From IMG/VR virus record IMGVR_UViG_3300045988_111617: DNA of 64,000 bases. The stretch is one strand, 5' to 3'. The position numbers and the translations under genes are program-made. This document shows positions 3,657 through 32,724 of the stretch, one piece after another (within the stretch, counting starts at the first letter, position 1; every line of letters starts with the position of its first letter). The DNA is from a virus. The notes under the pieces were generated by a model that was not told the DNA's origin, did no database searches, and saw only the letters and a list, made by a program, of their open reading frames with translations.

Positions 3657-3671
3657 ATATATGGGGGTGTT

Positions 3672-3845
3672 TTGGTTTTGATTACACTCTATTTGGTAGT
3701 ACCTTATGCAGTAGATGTGCAGCCTACTTTAAAAAAGCACAAACCAATAAATGCTAACAAAGCTAGAAAAACAGTTAGAAGCCTTGTAGATTATATTAAA
3801 TCTGCTATGCAGGCACCAGCAATCTCTTTTGCAGTTGCTGCCTAA
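3672..3845 (+). CDS. possible small secreted/membrane protein with TTG start
   Basis: Open frame from stop at 3654 to TAA 3843-3845 without ATG; TTG at 3672; hydrophobic N-terminus LVLITLYLVVPYA. Confidence 0.2.
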   Translation: MVLITLYLVVPYAVDVQPTLKKHKPINANKARKTVRSLVDYIKSAMQAPAISFAVAA

Positions 3846-4197
3846 CAACTGGCTTTAGTATTTGTGCCTTAAACAAATACTTGGTGGATGATGGGTGGAT
3901 GTTACCACCTGACTTTTGGAGTATTTCAGCAGTAATTGAAATACTATCCTAAGCATATAAATAAAGGTATTATTGAAGGTTTGTAAGACACAGGTTCAAC
4001 TACTCGGACCCTCTGCACAGGAATGTGCAGATGAAAACTGCTTGAACTGCTGGAAAGCTAAGTATCTGTTGAGAAACACATATATGCTAATCAGCATCCA
4101 AGCCTCTGGGAAGACAGAGGAAGGTTCAGAGACTAAGGACACTAAGGTGAGCCTACAGTAAGCAGCACCAAGAACTGGTGATGATATAGTCCAATCT

Positions 4198-4773
4198 CTA
4201 ATTAAAATTAGAAATATATTTTGAAATTAATTTAAGATATTGTTTAGTTTCTAAATCAGACATTGTATTTTTAAGATAATTTATAGGAGTAGATACAAAT
4301 TGTATATTTCCTATGATATATCCTTTAGAAGAATCTATTCTATCTAAAGAAGCCCTATTAGCAATAGGAATATCTTTAGTATGATTAGATGTAGGTAAAA
4401 TAAGAGAAATTCCAGTATATGGACATATTCCTTGCTGATTATTCCAGACTTCTCTGAGATAATCTATAGTCAAATTAAAGTTCTTATACCTCTTTTTAGC
4501 ATTTCTAAAGGTATATTTAAAAGGAGTATCTTCTGTTCTTTTATTCCCTGAAAGAGAAGATATATGCTTTTTACCTTCTTCACTGTTTCTCCAATCAGAA
4601 GTGTGATTAAGATTATGTTTATTAGCATAAAGTACTGAGCAACTTCTGGAACAGAAGTTATGTCTTCCTAATTTTAAATTTCTTTTATACTCTGATTCTG
4701 GTTTAGTAGCTTCACATCCACAATTATCACATGTAAAAGTGATAAGTTTTCTATTTTTCTTATAATTTAGCAT
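4198..4773 (-). CDS. HNH homing endonuclease
   Basis: 191 aa; N-terminal CDNCGC...CSRSC zinc-binding; C-terminal SLDRIDSSKGYIIGNIQFV typical of phage HNH_3 endonucleases. Confidence 0.6.
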   Translation of the reverse strand: MLNYKKNRKLITFTCDNCGCEATKPESEYKRNLKLGRHNFCSRSCSVLYANKHNLNHTSDWRNSEEGKKHISSLSGNKRTEDTPFKYTFRNAKKRYKNFNLTIDYLREVWNNQQGICPYTGISLILPTSNHTKDIPIANRASLDRIDSSKGYIIGNIQFVSTPINYLKNTMSDLETKQYLKLISKYISNFN

Positions 4774-4985
4774 AGTTAATATAATTAATCATGCAAAGAT
4801 AAGAATAAGTCGTGGAATTATCAAGTTAATAATTGAAATATTTAGCGAGTCCTGTCACCTCCACTAATAAATGGGGAAGTAGCATAATAAAAAAACTCTT
4901 GAGCTTTTACTTCTGAAGAGATAGTGTTATTGAGAGTTACTTCAGGTTAATGCATTAGTATCATAAACTAAAGATTGTTTGTTCA

Positions 4986-27068: not shown

Positions 27069-27575
27069 ATGAAAAAAAAAATGGTATTGACTTTAGTAAT
27101 TTGTTTCTTAGTTGCAGTAATGGCAGCATTCAGTAGAGATGCACTTAACCTATGGCTATCTAAAAAGGTAGGGTTTCCTCTTAAGGAGACTATAACTAAG
27201 GAAGGTATTCCCATAGTTACCCTTAAGAATGGAGAGAAAGAATTTAACTTCATTCTTGATACTGGGAGTACTGTATCTCATATAGACTCTACTATTAAGG
27301 ATTCTCTATCTGATGTAGAGGAAGTTGAAGGTAACAATTTTGCTATTGCTACTGCAAATGGTTCAGTTGAAGGTAACAACAGCTGGATTAGAGTTCCTTT
27401 GAACTACAAGAAACAGAGCTTTATCGAGGATTTCATGCCTTTGGACTTACATGATACCTTTGAAGATATAAAGGAAGAGACAGGGTTACAATTGCATGGT
27501 GTTCTTGGTAATACCTTCCTTAGAAAGTACAGATATGTACTTGATTATGATGATTTAGTTGCATATACAAAATGA
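27069..27575 (+). CDS. secreted retropepsin-like aspartic protease (candidate)
   Basis: Signal peptide MKKKMVLTLVICFLVAVMAAFS; FILDTGSTVSHID (D-T-G-S active-site motif). Confidence 0.4.
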   Translation: MKKKMVLTLVICFLVAVMAAFSRDALNLWLSKKVGFPLKETITKEGIPIVTLKNGEKEFNFILDTGSTVSHIDSTIKDSLSDVEEVEGNNFAIATANGSVEGNNSWIRVPLNYKKQSFIEDFMPLDLHDTFEDIKEETGLQLHGVLGNTFLRKYRYVLDYDDLVAYTK

Positions 27576-29890
27576 TATATCTTGTATCACAGCAGATATT
27601 GCCTCCCTCAGATACTTACAAAAGGATAAGTGTTGAGGAATCTCTACAGTTGCTTGAAACTATCTCTGTTGTGGGTCTTGATACTGAGACTATGGGCTTT
27701 GACCCATATACAAAACAACTCCTTATGCTTCAGTTGGGCTGTTATGACTTTCAAGTAGTCATAGACTGTACCACAGTAAGTCCTGAACTCTACAAAAGTT
27801 ATCTTGAATCTGATAGGCTGTTCATTGGATGGAATATAAAGTTTGACTTGAAGTTCCTGTTCCATCAAAGAATAGTGCTTAAGAATGTCTATGATGGGTT
27901 CCTTGCAGAGAAACTCATGTGGTTGGGTTATCCTGCTGGTATTCATTCTATGAGTCTTAAAGCAGCAGGAGAGAGATATTGTGGGGTTGAACTTGACAAG
28001 ACAGTCAGAGGTCAGATTATGTGGGCAGGACTTTCAGATGCAGTCATTGACTATGCTGCAAATGATGTAAAGTGGCTGCCTATGATTATGGAGAAGCAGG
28101 CTATAGAACTTGAAAAACAAGGTCTGTCAAATGCTCTTGTCTATGAGAACAAGTCTGTCATCTGGCTTGCCTATACTGAGTATTGTGGAGTGCTTCTTAG
28201 TAGAGAAAGATGGAGGAGAAAGATGGACTTGGACAGAATGAATGTCCAAGTGTTTGAAGATGCTCTCAATAAGTGGGTAGTAAGTTCTTATAAAGGAGAA
28301 GAGTACTCCTATCACTATCTTCAGATAGAAGGTGTCCCAGAAGATGACCTTAATAAGATGAGGTCTAAAATGGAAGGGGAAAGAGCACCAGAGGCTGATA
28401 TAAAAGGAGTAAAGAGAGGCTATTATGAAGCATATAAAGTTCCTATAGGAGTTAAGGTTCTTGAAGATTTTGTCATTGATGACCCTCAAGGAGACCTGTT
28501 TTCTGGTTGGGACAATGCTGTTCAGTGTAATATAAACTGGAACAGTCCTATGCAGGTGATAAGACTTTTCAAGTTCCTTGGATTCAATCTGTTGGTTCAA
28601 GACCCTGAGACTGGTGAAATGAAGGATAGTATTGAGTCAAAAGTGATAGAGCCTCAGAAAGAGAGGTCTACTTTGGCTTATCTATATCTTCAGTATAAGG
28701 CTGCCACAAAGGTCACTTCTACCTATGGAGAGAATGTACTCAGGCAGATTAATGGGACTAGTGGAAGGCTTCATACCAACTTCAACCAGTTAGGAACTGA
28801 TACAGGAAGGTTGAGTTCTGGAGGAAAGGATAAGAAGGCAGGACTTGAGTATCTGAATTTTCAGAACTTCCCTGCTGACCCTGAGACCAGAGCCTGCTTT
28901 ATATCTGGTCCTGGAATGAAGTGGATTAGCTGTGACTATAGTGGACAGGAGTCAAGGATTATAGCAGACATAACCAATGATACTGCTATGCTTGACCTGT
29001 TTAACAATGGTTGTGGAGATATTCATTCTCTGGTAGCGAAGATGGCATATCCAGAAATTATTGGAGATTGCCCTATTGAGGAAATCAAACACAAATTCAA
29101 GCATTGGAGAAGTGAGGCAAAGGGTGTTGAGTTTGCCATAAATTATGGTGGAGATGCCAACACTATCAGGTCAAATAAAGGCCTGCCTATACAAGAGGCT
29201 CAGAAGATATATGACAGTTATATGAAAGGTTTCAAGGGTATGAAAACATATCAGGACAGACAGAGAAAGTTTGTCATGGAAAATGGCTTTATCATCCTTA
29301 ATCCAATAAGCCAACATAAGGCATATATCTATGACTATGACCTTCTGATGAAACTTAAGTCCAAGTTTACATCAGACTTTTGGTCTACTTATAGACTGTG
29401 TAAAGGTAAAGAGACCAAGAATCTACCAAAAGTAGTGAAGCAGGAACTCTATAAGAGGTTTGCTGAATGTACTGATATAAGGCAGATTACAGGGCAATAT
29501 CCTTATACAAAGAAGGTAGGACAGAAGGAGGAGCATTATACAGCAGTAGTTACTCTGGAAGATGCCTATGTACACCCTGTCAAATATTTCTTCAAAAGAA
29601 AAGCTGCTTCTGAAAAGCAGGCAATCAACTATCCTTGTCAAGGTACAGGAGCTGTCATGTTCAAGACAGCCTCATGTTTCTTATGGGATTATCTTGTTAA
29701 ACATGACTTAGTATTCAAAGTCAAACTCTGTATTCCAGCACATGATGAATGGAATATAGAGGTTCCAGAGGAACTTGCTGATGAAATGACCAAAGTATTG
29801 CAGGATTGTATGGCTAAAGCAGGAGGATACTTCTGTAGAAAGCTTAAACTTCCAGCAGATGCAGAGACAAGTGACCATTGGATACATTAG
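27572..29890 (+). CDS. DNA polymerase family A with 3'-5' exonuclease
   Basis: Exo I VVGLDTETMG, Exo III YAANDV, pol motif A DYSGQESRI, motif B RSEAKGVEFAINYGG, motif C PAHDE. Confidence 0.75.
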   Translation: MIYLVSQQILPPSDTYKRISVEESLQLLETISVVGLDTETMGFDPYTKQLLMLQLGCYDFQVVIDCTTVSPELYKSYLESDRLFIGWNIKFDLKFLFHQRIVLKNVYDGFLAEKLMWLGYPAGIHSMSLKAAGERYCGVELDKTVRGQIMWAGLSDAVIDYAANDVKWLPMIMEKQAIELEKQGLSNALVYENKSVIWLAYTEYCGVLLSRERWRRKMDLDRMNVQVFEDALNKWVVSSYKGEEYSYHYLQIEGVPEDDLNKMRSKMEGERAPEADIKGVKRGYYEAYKVPIGVKVLEDFVIDDPQGDLFSGWDNAVQCNINWNSPMQVIRLFKFLGFNLLVQDPETGEMKDSIESKVIEPQKERSTLAYLYLQYKAATKVTSTYGENVLRQINGTSGRLHTNFNQLGTDTGRLSSGGKDKKAGLEYLNFQNFPADPETRACFISGPGMKWISCDYSGQESRIIADITNDTAMLDLFNNGCGDIHSLVAKMAYPEIIGDCPIEEIKHKFKHWRSEAKGVEFAINYGGDANTIRSNKGLPIQEAQKIYDSYMKGFKGMKTYQDRQRKFVMENGFIILNPISQHKAYIYDYDLLMKLKSKFTSDFWSTYRLCKGKETKNLPKVVKQELYKRFAECTDIRQITGQYPYTKKVGQKEEHYTAVVTLEDAYVHPVKYFFKRKAASEKQAINYPCQGTGAVMFKTASCFLWDYLVKHDLVFKVKLCIPAHDEWNIEVPEELADEMTKVLQDCMAKAGGYFCRKLKLPADAETSDHWIH

Positions 29891-29924
29891 GATATTTGGG
29901 AAAAAGGGGCTGTAGTACCTTTAA

Positions 29925-30003
29925 GCCTTACCTGAGCCCCTGAACCTTTCAGGTAACAGACCATTGGGTAATTCCATAGGAGTGCAGTAGTAAGGCTTTT
30001 TTA
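29925..30003 (+). terminator. structured terminator-like RNA element after polA
   Basis: Outer stem gccttac/gtaaggc enclosing hairpins (aggggct/agcccct 29905-29941, acct-ttc-aggt), then tttttt. Confidence 0.35.
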
Positions 30004-30318
30004 TAAAAAAAAAGAGGAATGAAACGAGTAATGCTATAATCAATAATATAATCTGCCAGTACACAAAGCCAATAGAAGAAGTTCTTCATGGTTGGATTAT
30101 TCTTATAGATGGTCAGGTATGGAAACCTTATTCAGGAAGTTTTATATTTAACTCAAGGAAACAGGCAGTTACTGCTTTTTATGATGCGATGAGGTGGAGA
30201 GTAGTAGGCTCTATGGGAATAGCTGAAGGTAATAGCTACTATTGGAGGGACAGTTCAATGTATTGGGCAAGATTTAAGGAAGCCTTGAAAGATAGGATGG
30301 AAATAAGACAGATTTAAC

Positions 30319-30600
30319 ATGGAAACAAGAGAATATCTATTGAATCAGAAAGAAAAAGAAAAGAAAGATATGGTTAATCATCCAGACCATTATAATGTCA
30401 ATGGCATGGAATGTATTGATGTTATGGAAAAACTGTTTGGTATAGACTGGACATATCATTTCTGTGTGCTTAATGCTTTCAAATATCAGTTTAGGTTTAA
30501 TAATAAAGGCAAAGCTCAGGAAGATTTGAGAAAGGCTGCATGGTATAATACTAAGGCAGCAGAACTTCTTGAGAAGATGGAGGGAAAAAACAATGGCTAA
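30319..30600 (+). CDS. hypothetical protein (HPDHY motif, DUF3310-like from memory)
   Basis: 93 aa, NHPDHYNVNG...KYQFR. Confidence 0.4.
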   Translation: METREYLLNQKEKEKKDMVNHPDHYNVNGMECIDVMEKLFGIDWTYHFCVLNAFKYQFRFNNKGKAQEDLRKAAWYNTKAAELLEKMEGKNNG

Positions 30601-31282
30601 ATATCAGAAAATACAGACACTATTTCTCAGAGATGATAAGAATATTATCATTCCTGACCAGTTCACTTATCCAGAGTTTGAGTATCTGAAAGATAATAAA
30701 TGGGAGTGTACTGAGAAGATTGATTGAACCAACATCAGAATAGAACTTGACTTCAATGTCCATGATGATGGAGTAAGAGAGGTAAATGTTAATTTCAAAG
30801 GAAGAACTGATGAGGCTAACATACCTGAACATTTGTACAGAAGGCTTGAAGAACTGTTTGACAATGTTAATTGGCTTGAGATATTTGATATCACAAGTAC
30901 TACATCCATTACCCTCTATGGTGAAGGATATGGAGCTAAGATTCAAAAAGGAGGTAACTACATAAGTTCTGGTGTAGATTTTATCCTCTTTGATGTTAAA
31001 GTTGATAAATGGTGGCTGCAAAGGGATGCTGTTGAGGATATTGCAAATAAACTCAACATCAAAATAGTTCCTCTTATAGGATATATGACTATCCCTGAGG
31101 CAGTTGAGTATGTCAGGAGAGGCTTCAAGTCTACTATTGCAGAGAATAAGGATTATGAGGCTGAGGGTCTTGTTCTTAAGACTACTACAGGACTTCTGAG
31201 AAGGAATGGAGAAAGGCTTATAACCAAAATCAAGACAGTTGATTTCAGAAAATACAGAGATAGTCAAGTGATGAAATCATGA
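30593..31282 (+). CDS. Rnl2-like RNA ligase interrupted by in-frame TGA (30725-30727) at the KxDG glycine; recoded or pseudogene
   Basis: ATG 30593; TEKID-TGA-TNIRI is the nucleotidyltransferase motif I KIDGTN with the stop at the Gly position; downstream EGLVLK (motif IV) and ITKIK (motif V) are in the same frame. The ORF track shows only the 30833-31282 part. Confidence 0.55.
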
Positions 31283-31467
31283 AACAGTGGACATCAAAAG
31301 AGTTTCTAAGGATGCTTAGAAAGAATGGATATACTTACAGTAGACATAATGGGGACCATCATATCTATGTAAGTGAGGGAGGAAGGCATATATCTGTACC
31401 TCAGAAACTTGAGTGTGTCATTGCAAGAAGACTGATTAAAGAATATAATTTAAATACTGAATTATGA
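31279..31467 (+). CDS. hicA: HicA-family toxin (mRNA interferase)
   Basis: 62 aa, LRKNGYTYSRHNGDHHIYVSEGGRHISVP matches the HicA/YcfA pattern. Confidence 0.55.
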   Translation: MKQWTSKEFLRMLRKNGYTYSRHNGDHHIYVSEGGRHISVPQKLECVIARRLIKEYNLNTEL

Positions 31468-31474
31468 GTTTAGT

Positions 31475-31729
31475 ATGAGTAGAATTTATGGTGTAAGCAG
31501 TGATGGGGGATACCCAGCAGGGGCAGAATTTGATTCTAAATGTCCTTGGAATCAACCTCCAGATGAAGAGGTTGAAGTTTGTGTAAGTGTAACATATCAT
31601 GGTACAGTCAAGGTTAAAGTTCCTCATAATTATGAGGAATGTGACCTTAAAAAGGCTGTAAGAAATCAGATAACTCTTCCTGGGGATTTCTCTAAGGTAT
31701 GGGTTGAAGATGAAATGGAGATAATATAG
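31475..31729 (+). CDS. hypothetical protein (positional HicB-antitoxin candidate)
   Basis: 84-aa ORF immediately downstream of hicA; no sequence support for HicB. Confidence 0.3.
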   Translation: MSRIYGVSSDGGYPAGAEFDSKCPWNQPPDEEVEVCVSVTYHGTVKVKVPHNYEECDLKKAVRNQITLPGDFSKVWVEDEMEII

Positions 31730-31739
31730 AAGTAGGAGA

Positions 31740-32423
31740 ATGAGAATATTGGTTATAGGTGACATACATGGTCACAATGGTTGGGAGAAAGTAGTCTCCA
31801 AGGAGGATTGGGATAAAGTAGTCTTCCTTGGAGATTACTTTGACAATTATAGGAATACTCCTGGAAAAGAGCAAGTTACTAACTTCAAGAAGATACTTGC
31901 AATGAAGGCTACTCACCCTGATAAGGTAGAACTTCTCTATGGAAATCATGACCATTCCTATCTTAACAAGGAAAGATGCAGTGGTTATAAATGGCAAAAT
32001 CAACTTATTTATGAAGAAGTACTTAAGGAAGCTAAGGATAAAGGCTGGCTTAAACCTGTGTATATTCACGATGACATTATCTTCTCTCATGCAGGAGTAT
32101 CTTCATATTGGCTCAAAGAGGTAGCCCAATTAGCACATCCTCAGGACATTACTTGGGAGAATGTTCCTCTTGATAAGTTCAACTTCAATGAACTTACTGG
32201 GTACAATCCATTTGGAGATACACCTTCACAGAGTCCTATCTGGCTTAGACCTATGTCCCTTCTGAAATACCCCATTGATGGATACAGGCAGGTAGTAGGA
32301 CATACTCAGATGAAGGTTCCTGTGAATAGGGATAAAGTATGGTTCAATGATATGATGCCTAAGTATTATATCATTGTTGAAGATGGTAACATAGAGTTTA
32401 AGGAGAATAAACTGGAAGTTTAA
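31740..32423 (+). CDS. calcineurin-like metallophosphoesterase (Ser/Thr phosphatase-like)
   Basis: ILVIGDIHGH, VVFLGDYFDN, YGNHDHSY motifs. Confidence 0.65.
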   Translation: MRILVIGDIHGHNGWEKVVSKEDWDKVVFLGDYFDNYRNTPGKEQVTNFKKILAMKATHPDKVELLYGNHDHSYLNKERCSGYKWQNQLIYEEVLKEAKDKGWLKPVYIHDDIIFSHAGVSSYWLKEVAQLAHPQDITWENVPLDKFNFNELTGYNPFGDTPSQSPIWLRPMSLLKYPIDGYRQVVGHTQMKVPVNRDKVWFNDMMPKYYIIVEDGNIEFKENKLEV

Positions 32424-32445
32424 GTAATCATGGAAAGATAAAATT

Positions 32446-32724
32446 ATGTATACAGTTAAAGAGTGGCATTGTAGACCCACTTATAGAAAAGGAGACTTAG
32501 AGGCTGAAGCGGTAGTAATTAATGTTACTACTTTTAAAACTAGAAAAGCAGCTAAAGAGTTCATTGAAAATAAGTTGAAAGGGAAAAAGGAGGCTTGGAG
32601 AAGATACCATAAAGGTAATGAGACAAGCTATTGTGGATATTGTACTGGTAAAACTTGGATTCATGAGAATAATGGTGAAACTTACAAGGAATCTTTCACT
32701 TTTGAATTATCAAAAGGCATATGA
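32446..32724 (+). CDS. hypothetical protein
   Basis: 92-aa ORF. Confidence 0.45.
   Translation: MYTVKEWHCRPTYRKGDLEAEAVVINVTTFKTRKAAKEFIENKLKGKKEAWRRYHKGNETSYCGYCTGKTWIHENNGETYKESFTFELSKGI

What the first reader, a model, noticed from the sequence alone, without database searches (positions are those of the whole stretch)
30593..31282. Rnl2-like RNA ligase with an in-frame TGA exactly at the catalytic KxDG glycine
One frame reads from ATG 30593 through to 31282 with a single TGA at 30725-30727. The flanking residues TEKID-stop-TNIRI reproduce ligase motif I (KIDGTN) with the stop at the Gly position. Motifs IV (EGLVLK) and V (ITKIK) follow in frame. Two explanations are possible. One is a very recent GGA to TGA nonsense mutation or a sequencing error, which would make it a pseudogene. 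The other is site-specific readthrough or recoding. Genome-wide TGA reassignment (code 25, UGA=Gly) is unlikely because TGA ends many confident genes here.
Basis: partly seen in the sequence, partly recalled or inferred. Interest (0 to 1): 0.6.

Follow-up and report, generated by a model that had tools for sequence, protein, structure and literature searches.

The report
Recent nonsense mutation in phage RNA ligase
One strain of a crAss-like gut phage from the Fiji cohort carries a real single-base G-to-T change that turns the catalytic-motif glycine codon of an accessory RNA ligase gene into a stop codon; this is an ordinary, very young knockout allele, not a recoding signal.

Summary
ORF 30593-31282 (+) is a 229-codon RNA ligase gene (Pfam PF09414). 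It has a single in-frame TGA at 30725-30727, exactly at the Gly of motif I (KIDGTN).

The TGA is not an assembly error. The truncated products are on record in about 30 separately assembled contigs from the FijiCOMP cohort, all 99.98-100% identical to the window.

It is also not recoding:
- A sister strain from the same cohort is 99.93% identical over 20.7 kb. In the ligase gene it differs at one base only, 30725 G instead of T, and encodes exactly the "repaired" protein.
- All other relatives examined carry GGA.
- TGA terminates 18 of 58 ORFs in the window, including the ligase gene itself.
- The strain's 14 tRNAs include no UGA reader.
- There is no structured element downstream of the stop.
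- No other residue of the window's protein is unique, so nothing has decayed downstream yet.

The cultured relative crAss001 lacks this ligase in the syntenic half of its genome that I checked.

Verdict: a very recent GGA→TGA nonsense allele, a natural knockout of an accessory gene, segregating in one phage strain. Low interest.

In passing, the window's tmRNA gene is split by a group I intron.

The parts
30593..31282 (+). RNA ligase gene (229 codons, stand-alone Rnl2-type nucleotidyltransferase domain), interrupted at codon 45
   Evidence: Pfam PF09414 E=6.7e-19; PHROG 548; T4 Rnl2 PDB hits; intact 229-aa orthologues at 96-99% identity
30725..30727 (+). Nonsense codon TGA in place of GGA (Gly45 of motif I KxDG); the change is G→T at 30725
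   Evidence: GGA in L001-L008, in sister-strain loci L019-L028 and in 9 IMG/VR and metagenome loci
30716..30733 (+). Motif I (K42-I-D-[G45→stop]-T-N); K42 is the predicted adenylylation lysine
   Evidence: Invariant columns K42 I43 D44 G45 T46 N47 in alignment A1. The catalytic role of the lysine is taken from established knowledge of covalent nucleotidyltransferases
30593..30727 (+). Remnant N-terminal ORF (44 aa), the only product expected from the normal start
   Evidence: This exact 44-aa product is called on 32 contigs in public assemblies
30833..31282 (+). Remnant C-terminal ORF (149 aa from TTG) carrying motifs III-V but no motif I lysine; probably not a functional product
   Evidence: on record in 30 contigs. 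The loss of function is inferred
30914..30934 (+). Motif III (LYGEGYG, residues 108-114)
   Evidence: Aligned to T4 Rnl2 'VFGEFAG'; invariant in A1
30980..30997 (+). Motif IIIa (FILFDV, residues 130-135)
   Evidence: Aligned to T4 Rnl2 'FYVFDI'; invariant in A1
31163..31180 (+). Motif IV (EGLVLK, residues 191-196)
   Evidence: Aligned to T4 Rnl2 'EGYVLK'; invariant in A1
31220..31234 (+). Motif V (ITKIK, residues 210-214)
   Evidence: Aligned to T4 Rnl2 'AIKCK'; T211 K212 I213 K214 invariant in A1
31279..31467 (+). HicA-toxin-like gene whose ATG overlaps the ligase stop (ATGA); a possible translational coupling would be lost in the nonsense allele (inference)
   Evidence: Pfam HicA_toxin E=1.3e-8; sequence
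30319..30600 (+). Upstream DUF3310 gene whose stop overlaps the ligase start (context only)
   Evidence: Pfam PF11753 E=1e-15

Best explanation
The window comes from a crAss-like phage of about 104.6 kb (Crassvirales; its major capsid protein is 80% identical to that of Bacteroides phage crAss001). It carries an accessory RNA ligase gene made of a stand-alone Rnl2-type nucleotidyltransferase domain. In one strain circulating in the Fiji Community Microbiome cohort, a single G→T transversion at window position 30725 changed the GGA codon for the motif I glycine into TGA. Translation from the normal start should end after 44 residues. The downstream 149-codon remnant lacks the adenylylation lysine, so the strain is a natural ligase knockout. 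The mutation is very young: nothing else in the gene differs from the intact sister allele. The knockout strain is still found in many assemblies, so the ligase is dispensable at least in the short term. Shown here: the SNP, its reproducibility, the intact sister allele, and the absence of any recoding apparatus. Inferred: loss of protein function, dispensability, and a possible polar effect on the overlapping hicA-like gene.
For: (1) Stop position and motifs.
(2) Real allele: the exact 44-aa and 149-aa truncated products are on record in 32 and 30 contigs. Ten such loci, L009-L018, come from at least 5 different SRA runs of PRJNA217052, a BioSample-level scaffold of 104,618 bp (SAMN02333939 = FijiCOMP subject M1.20, stool) and SPAdes re-assemblies. 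All carry TGA and are 99.98-100% identical to the window.
(3) Intact sister allele: the exact repaired protein P0122 (G45) is found on 24 contigs read. Its loci L019-L028 include other FijiCOMP runs. L019 differs from the window by 12 SNPs and 2 homopolymer indels over 20.7 kb (99.93%). In the 690-nt ligase gene they differ only by T/G at 30725.
(4) All other relatives carry GGA: L001-L008 and 9 IMG/VR and metagenome loci.
(5) No decay: no residue of the window protein other than codon 45 is absent from the homologues.
(6) The gene is normally under purifying selection: median pairwise dN/dS is 0.24 among intact alleles.
(7) TGA is a normal terminator: 18 of 58 ORFs end in TGA, and ORFs of 2411, 1352, 2083 and 1912 codons contain none in frame.
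(8) No UGA decoder: there are no tRNAs in the window. The strain's tRNAs lie upstream of the window (12 in one array, plus Lys and Ile further on) and were read from samples that carry the TGA allele. They are Met, Thr, Leu(UAA), Phe, Cys, His, Ile, Trp(CCA), Asn, Ala, Pro, Gln, Lys(UUU) and Ile(UAU), with no UCA anticodon. Relatives also have none.
(9) No structure downstream of the stop: z-score -0.11.
(10) Accessory gene: crAss001 has no ligase in the syntenic half of its genome.
Against: Raw read pile-ups were not inspected, so within-sample allele frequencies are unknown. The mapping of SRA runs to subjects could not be obtained. All TGA contigs could therefore come from one person's sample sequenced in several runs. 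Loss of activity is inferred, not measured. Basal near-cognate UGA readthrough cannot be excluded by sequence analysis. About 10 kb of the TGA strain's own genome was checked for tRNAs only in 95%-similar relatives.
Confidence: 0.93

Rival explanations
1. Sequencing or assembly error: the true base at 30725 is G and the gene is intact.
For: A single-base difference is the kind of change an error could produce. Per-run contigs have low coverage, about 3-5x according to the SPAdes contig names.
Against: T at 30725 recurs in at least 10 separately assembled contigs from at least 5 SRA runs and three assembly pipelines. Other runs of the same project, carrying the sister strain with identical flanking sequence, consistently give G, so a context-dependent systematic error is excluded. 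The TGA lineage also has linked differences from the GGA lineage (12 SNPs in 20.7 kb) and its own micro-variants.
Confidence: 0.01
2. Programmed recoding: the UGA is decoded (as Gly, Trp or Sec) by a suppressor tRNA, by a recoding signal, or as part of the stop-codon reassignment known in some crAss-like phages, so that a full-length active ligase is made.
For: Stop-codon reassignment (TAG→Gln, TGA→Trp) with phage suppressor tRNAs is documented in other Crassvirales (PMC7886860; bioRxiv 10.1101/2021.08.26.457843). The ORF downstream of the stop is intact. UGA followed by A is, from my own knowledge of E. coli, a relatively leaky context. The strain encodes tRNA-Trp(CCA), the usual near-cognate reader of UGA.
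Against: Only one strain has the stop, and its 99.93%-identical sister has GGA, so there has been no time for a recoding device to evolve and no sequence difference nearby that could be one. TGA terminates 18 of 58 ORFs, including this gene. No other conserved gene shows an in-frame TGA: gene lengths in L009 and L019 are identical except for the ligase. There is no UCA-anticodon tRNA and no downstream hairpin. Near-cognate readthrough would insert Trp at an invariant Gly, which would probably be inactive. An intact downstream ORF is expected for any very young nonsense allele.
Confidence: 0.03
3. Adaptive knockout: the nonsense allele is real and was selected, for example because the ligase or the coupled expression of the downstream HicA-like toxin is costly or is sensed by a host defence. 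This is a variant of the main explanation that differs only in the evolutionary cause.
For: In the public assemblies of this cohort the TGA lineage is at least as widely recovered (30-32 contigs) as the intact sister allele (22 contigs listed). It has acquired micro-variants of its own. The ligase stop overlaps the hicA-like start. The neighbourhood is variable among relatives.
Against: Contig counts may reflect one deeply sequenced sample. The TGA is linked to other SNPs, so hitch-hiking or drift explains its frequency equally well. No independent second knockout of this gene was seen among the homologues, loci and cluster members examined. Purifying selection (dN/dS about 0.2) elsewhere argues that the gene is normally useful.
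Confidence: 0.1

Closest known systems
T4 RNA ligase 2 (Rnl2; PDB 1S68, 2HVQ), nucleotidyltransferase domain, Pfam PF09414
   Same: The order and sequence of motifs I, III, IIIa, IV and V match (KIDGTN / LYGEGYG / FILFDV / EGLVLK / ITKIK). Pfam PF09414 is matched over the full profile. T4 Rnl2 chains are the only significant PDB hits.
   Different: The protein is only 229 aa. The match ends at about residue 238 of the 335-residue T4 Rnl2 chain, so the Rnl2 C-terminal domain is absent. Sequence similarity is low (PDB E-values 1e-4 to 1e-3). In this strain the gene is cut at codon 45.
Intact orthologues in closely related crAss-like phages (e.g. P0122, P0001-P0066; IMG/VR UViG_3300045988_082301); more distantly, the annotated 'RNA ligase' of uncultured phage cr116_1 and IAS virus
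   Same: Same locus (DNA polymerase, small gene, DUF3310, ligase, hicA-like, metallophosphoesterase, thyX-like) and 96-100% protein identity. P0122 is identical apart from codon 45. cr116_1 and IAS virus are 57-60% identical.
   Different: All of them have GGA (Gly) at codon 45 and are full length.
Stop-codon-reassigned Crassvirales (TAG→Gln or TGA→Trp blocks with suppressor tRNAs)
   Same: The phage order is the same, and there is an in-frame stop codon in a conserved gene.
   Different: Here there is a single stop in one early or middle gene of one strain. TGA is kept as a terminator, there is no suppressor tRNA, and the stop sits at a Gly codon rather than a Trp or Gln codon.

Membership tests
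Rnl2-type RNA ligase / Pfam PF09414 (covalent nucleotidyltransferase superfamily) | Significant full-length match to the family profile | tested here: met
   PF09414 E=6.7e-19, 69.1 bits against a cutoff of 27, profile positions 2-171 of 171; PHROG 548 RNA ligase E=3e-24.
Rnl2-type RNA ligase / Pfam PF09414 (covalent nucleotidyltransferase superfamily) | Intact motif I KxDG with the adenylylated lysine in a continuous reading frame | tested here: not met
   In the window allele the Gly codon is TGA. K42 lies in a 44-aa remnant, separated from motifs III-V. The feature is met in the sister allele P0122 and in all relatives. The window copy is therefore a disabled member.
Rnl2-type RNA ligase / Pfam PF09414 (covalent nucleotidyltransferase superfamily) | Motifs III, IIIa, IV and V in order | tested here: met
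   HMMER alignments to T4 Rnl2 chains 1s68_A and 2hvq_A align LYGEGYG, FILFDV, EGLVLK and ITKIK with GEFAG, FYVFDI, EGYVLK and AIKCK. All are invariant in A1.
Rnl2-type RNA ligase / Pfam PF09414 (covalent nucleotidyltransferase superfamily) | Rnl2-specific C-terminal domain (needed by T4 Rnl2 for nick sealing; from my own knowledge of the Rnl2 literature) | tested here: not met
   The protein ends 15 residues after motif V. The PDB alignment stops at chain residue 237-238 of 335, and the PHROG 548 match covers profile positions 3-238 of 341. It is a stand-alone nucleotidyltransferase domain, not a full Rnl2 orthologue.
Rnl2-type RNA ligase / Pfam PF09414 (covalent nucleotidyltransferase superfamily) | Fold of the nucleotidyltransferase domain | tested here: inconclusive
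   The AlphaFold2 model built from an 18-sequence alignment had mean pLDDT 53.7. It was too poor for a fold search, so none was run.
Rnl2-type RNA ligase / Pfam PF09414 (covalent nucleotidyltransferase superfamily) | ATP-dependent RNA end-joining activity | not testable with these tools
   Needs biochemistry on the intact (P0122) and truncated products.
Stop-codon-reassigned phage genome (code 4 / 25-like UGA sense) | The reassigned codon is not used as a terminator and occurs in frame in many genes | tested here: not met
   18 of 58 ORFs end in TGA. ORFs of 1352 to 2411 codons are uninterrupted. The TGA and GGA strains have identical gene lengths in all other genes over 20 kb.
Stop-codon-reassigned phage genome (code 4 / 25-like UGA sense) | Phage-encoded suppressor tRNA (anticodon UCA) | tested here: not met
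   ARAGORN finds none in the window, among the strain's 14 tRNAs in L129, L132, L133 and L029, or in relatives' loci covering the rest of the genome. About 10 kb was seen only in relatives.
Stop-codon-reassigned phage genome (code 4 / 25-like UGA sense) | The in-frame stop is conserved among relatives | tested here: not met
   By motif-pattern count, GGA in 22 loci and TGA in 10; 5 further loci (L001-L004, L008) also carry GGA. All TGA loci belong to one strain.
Selenocysteine insertion at UGA | SECIS-like hairpin immediately downstream of the UGA | tested here: not met
   Folding of 30716-30800 gives -12.7 kcal/mol, z-score -0.11 against shuffles. The downstream sequence is identical in the GGA allele.
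Recent nonsense (loss-of-function) allele / nascent pseudogene | Orthologues are intact with a sense codon at the site, and the difference is a single substitution | tested here: met
   GGA↔TGA at 30725 is the only difference from the sister allele in 690 nt.
Recent nonsense (loss-of-function) allele / nascent pseudogene | The variant is reproducible in independent data | tested here: met
   At least 10 separately assembled contigs from at least 5 SRA runs. Raw reads were not inspected.
Recent nonsense (loss-of-function) allele / nascent pseudogene | Secondary decay downstream (further stops, frameshifts, unique substitutions) | tested here: not met
   None: no unique residue other than codon 45 and zero other differences from the sister allele. 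This is consistent with a very young allele, so 'pseudogene' is meant only in the sense of a fresh knockout.

The most novel reading that the evidence does not exclude
The nonsense allele is not neutral. Either low-level UGA readthrough keeps a trickle of full-length ligase, making it a leaky, down-tuned allele, or loss of the ligase (and of translational coupling into the overlapping hicA-like gene) was selected in this Fijian phage lineage, for instance to evade a host defence that senses phage RNA-repair activity. If so, it would be a natural experiment on what RNA ligases do for crAss-like phages.
Probability: 0.06. Interest if true: 0.4.

Novelty: already known. Interest (0 to 1): 0.08.

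Why it matters
It matters little as biology. A single-strain nonsense polymorphism in an accessory phage gene is commonplace. There are two modest practical points. First, annotators should not take this in-frame TGA as evidence of an alternative genetic code in this crAss-like lineage. Second, the pair of near-isogenic natural strains (GGA and TGA, 99.93% identical) in one human cohort gives a ready-made comparison for asking whether the phage RNA ligase affects fitness in the gut.

Tried and rejected
- Megablast of 29900-32500 against INPHARED phages found no match. The closest annotated phages are related only at protein level.
- An exact-pattern scan of IMG/VR with the end of L029, meant to walk along the genome, found nothing.
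- The search for related loci with a variable 175-aa flank gene returned only distant phages. I replaced it with conserved structural genes and with an exact look-up of a flank protein. The latter delivered the strain's own tRNA array.
- AlphaFold2 on an 18-sequence, low-diversity alignment gave pLDDT 53.7, so I ran no fold search. Family placement rests on Pfam, PHROG and PDB sequence matches.
- A crude scan for same-frame ORF pairs split by one stop was swamped by antisense and non-coding ORFs and was uninformative. I replaced it with a gene-by-gene comparison of the TGA and GGA strains' gene calls.
- I tried to map SRA runs to FijiCOMP subjects through paper supplements. Only SAMN02333939 = subject M1.20 was recovered.
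- Considered and rejected: code 25 or code 4 reassignment, selenocysteine, a suppressor tRNA, and assembly error (reasons in the report).
- The conserved non-coding stretch after the DNA polymerase gene has no Rfam match and unexceptional folding.

Full report
**1. The observation**

The + strand frame starting at ATG 30593 runs to TGA 31280-31282 and contains exactly one internal stop, TGA at 30725-30727. The translation reads ...WECTEKID*TNIRIEL... With Gly in place of the stop, the 229-aa product matches Pfam RNA_ligase (PF09414) end to end (E=6.7e-19, 69.1 bits, cutoff 27). It also matches PHROG 548 'RNA ligase' (E=3e-24). Its only significant matches among solved structures are T4 RNA ligase 2 chains (1s68, 2hvq). 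There LYGEGYG, FILFDV, EGLVLK and ITKIK align with Rnl2 motifs III, IIIa, IV and V.

K42-I-D-G45-T-N is invariant in 18 homologues spanning 70-100% identity. So the stop sits exactly on the motif I glycine, three codons after the predicted adenylylation lysine. The product length is 229 aa, not 230.

**2. What the window is**

The gene content includes crAss capsid, ring, muzzle and cargo proteins and giant RNAP-like proteins of 2411, 1352 and 2083 aa. The major capsid protein is 80% identical to that of Bacteroides phage crAss001. The phage record classifies crAss001 as Crassvirales; Steigviridae; Asinivirinae; Kehishuvirus. Together these identify a crAss-like phage.

The window is 100% identical to a 104,618-bp scaffold assembled from BioSample SAMN02333939. 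That sample is stool of subject M1.20 of the Fiji Community Microbiome Project, PRJNA217052.

The ligase lies in the replication and nucleotide-metabolism block. The local gene order is:
- family A DNA polymerase (27572-29890)
- a small gene
- DUF3310 (30319-30600)
- the ligase
- a hicA-like gene (31279-31467)
- an 84-aa ORF
- a metallophosphoesterase (31740-32423)
- a 92-aa ORF
- a thyX-like gene

**3. Is the TGA real?**

Yes. The exact 44-aa N-terminal product and the 149-aa C-terminal remnant are on record in 32 and 30 contigs of public assemblies. The ten loci I fetched (L009-L018) come from at least five different SRA runs, assembled by MEGAHIT, SPAdes and a scaffold-level pipeline. All have TGA and are 99.98-100% identical to the window.

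Two micro-variants exist inside this lineage. One is an extra A in the homopolymer at 30005. The other is A→T at 30518.

**4. What do relatives have?**

Every relative has GGA. This holds for:
- eight loci encoding 98-99% identical proteins
- four IMG/VR genomes and five metagenome contigs matched with a pattern that left codon 45 free
- all 60 retrieved proteins

The decisive result concerns the conceptually repaired protein, with G at position 45 and every other residue unchanged. It exists as such in the databases (P0122, found on 24 contigs read). Its loci include other runs of the same Fiji project and a 103,481-bp contig. L019, fetched from that contig, differs from the window by 12 substitutions and 2 homopolymer indels over 20.7 kb (99.93% identity). 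Within the 690-nt ligase gene these loci differ at one position only, 30725 (G instead of T).

No residue of the window's protein other than codon 45 is absent from the homologues. Among intact alleles the gene evolves under purifying selection, with median pairwise dN/dS of 0.24.

The stop is therefore a single, very recent G→T transversion on an otherwise unchanged, normally functional gene. A context-specific sequencing error is excluded. Runs carrying the sister strain have identical flanking sequence and consistently read G.

**5. Could the UGA be decoded?**

Nothing supports it.
- TGA ends 18 of 58 non-overlapping ORFs in the window, including the ligase gene itself. The very long ORFs contain no TGA in frame.
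- Gene calls in the TGA strain (L009) and the GGA strain (L019) are identical in length for every other gene over 20 kb.
- The window has no tRNA gene.
- I recovered the strain's own tRNAs from contigs of samples that carry the TGA allele (L132 and L133; also L129 and L029). Twelve lie in one array and two further on. They are Met, Thr, Leu(UAA), Phe, Cys, His, Ile(GAU), Trp(CCA), Asn, Ala, Pro, Gln(UUG), Lys(UUU) and Ile(UAU). None has anticodon UCA.
- Loci covering the structural half of the genome in the sister strain and in 95%-similar relatives have no further tRNAs.
- The RNA downstream of the stop folds no better than shuffled sequence, z = -0.11, and it is identical in the GGA allele.

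Known reassignment in Crassvirales differs in kind. It involves many in-frame TAG or TGA codons, suppressor tRNAs and avoidance of the codon as a terminator (PMC7886860; bioRxiv 10.1101/2021.08.26.457843).

Basal near-cognate readthrough by tRNA-Trp cannot be excluded from sequence alone. It would place Trp at an invariant Gly.

**6. Mechanism and consequences**

Shown: a nonsense SNP that splits the catalytic lysine from motifs III-V.

Inferred: translation ends after 44 residues. The 149-codon remnant starts at a TTG and lacks motif I, so it cannot be adenylylated, and the strain lacks ligase activity. The ligase stop overlaps the ATG of the hicA-like gene (ATGA at 31279-31282). Premature termination 555 nt upstream may therefore also lower expression of that gene, if the two are translationally coupled. 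This is inference only.

The knockout lineage was recovered in about as many contigs as its intact sister. The cultured relative crAss001 has no ligase in the syntenic half of its genome. The gene therefore appears accessory and dispensable in the short term.

**7. Comparison with known families**

The gene works like, and belongs to, the PF09414/Rnl2-type nucleotidyltransferase family. It lacks the Rnl2 C-terminal domain (the match ends at about residue 238 of 335), so it is a stand-alone domain ligase rather than an Rnl2 orthologue.

The copy in the window fails the 'intact motif I' criterion and is a disabled member. It fails every criterion tested for stop-codon reassignment or selenocysteine insertion. 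It meets the criteria of a fresh nonsense allele, except that no secondary decay has yet occurred.

**8. Limits**

- Raw reads were not available.
- Run-to-subject mapping was not obtained, so the TGA lineage may come from one person or from several.
- The AlphaFold model was too poor to use.
- About 10 kb of the TGA strain's own genome was checked for tRNAs only in relatives.

**9. Verdict**

This is a real but ordinary feature: a very young GGA→TGA loss-of-function allele of an accessory RNA ligase in one crAss-like phage strain. Novelty: already known kind. Interest: low.

**10. Seen in passing**

- The strain's tmRNA gene is interrupted in the T-loop by a group I intron of about 850 nt.
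- A neighbouring small gene has lost its start codon, ATG→AGG, in both the TGA and the GGA strains.
- A roughly 280-nt deletion removed the phage tRNA-Gly(UCC) found in relatives.
- A Ro60/TROVE-like gene lies just upstream of the window.

Noticed in passing
window 3663-4867 (+): tmRNA 5' part 3663-~3997, intron ~3998-4846, 3' part ~4847-4867: A phage-encoded tmRNA gene is split in the T-loop of its tRNA-like domain by a group I intron of about 850 nt. Rfam gives tmRNA 48.1 bits (gathering score 47) at 3671-4002 and Intron_gpI 76.1 bits (gathering score 50), full model, at 3987-4213. The relative L030 has the uninterrupted gene (ARAGORN, tag ...AISFAVAA), and identity with it breaks at ~3997 and resumes at ~4847. 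The insertion also holds an ORF on the opposite strand (4198-4773, 191 aa, no Pfam hit on record). ARAGORN misses the split gene. Intron-form tmRNAs are known in bacteria, with none longer than 700 bp in PMC11915505; I did not find one described for a crAss-like phage.
   Followed up: partly
window 30015-30317 (+): The 100-102-aa gene between the DNA polymerase and DUF3310 genes has lost its start codon. Relatives read ATG AAT GAA and the window reads AGG AAT GAA (T→G at 30016). The rest of the frame is open. No gene is called there in either the TGA strain or the GGA sister strain, so this second apparently disabling point mutation is older than the ligase stop.
   Followed up: partly
L129 5190-5480 (window strain, about 14.5 kb upstream of window position 1), compared with L071 4005-4590 and L068 4135-4590: The window strain's tRNA array lacks the tRNA-Gly(UCC) that three close relatives carry between tRNA-Thr and tRNA-Met. 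A clean deletion of about 280 nt removes it. This is a coincidence with the Gly-codon mutation and has no evident causal link.
   Followed up: partly
L029 5899-7308 (about 2.7-4.1 kb upstream of window position 1): A 469-aa TROVE-domain (Ro60-like) protein is encoded in the phage, flanked by AAA ATPases and close to tRNA genes and the tmRNA. crAss001 annotates an 'RNA-binding protein' at the equivalent place. Together with the ligase, the hicA-like gene, the metallophosphoesterase and the tmRNA, this suggests an RNA-quality-control or RNA-repair gene set. No Y-RNA search was done.
   Followed up: no
window 31279-31729 (+): A HicA-toxin-like gene (62 aa, Pfam E=1.3e-8) starts at an ATG that overlaps the ligase stop. 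It is followed by an 84-aa ORF with no family match, and there is no recognisable HicB antitoxin. Gene callers in other assemblies mostly pick a shorter 51-aa version that would remove part of the HicA domain.
   Followed up: partly
L003 3040-3615 and L005 10932-11507 (relatives), equivalent to window ~31470: Some close relatives carry a 191-aa NUMOD4 homing-endonuclease gene inserted between the hicA-like gene and the 84-aa ORF; the window strain lacks it. Several other HNH, GIY-YIG and NUMOD genes are scattered in the window and its flanks, so endonuclease-driven mosaicism is high in this lineage.
   Followed up: no
window 29895-30005 (+): A non-coding stretch just after the DNA polymerase stop is nearly identical in relatives that differ elsewhere. 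It ends in a stem followed by a T-run and looks like a terminator. There is no Rfam match and folding is unexceptional, z = +0.19.
   Followed up: yes
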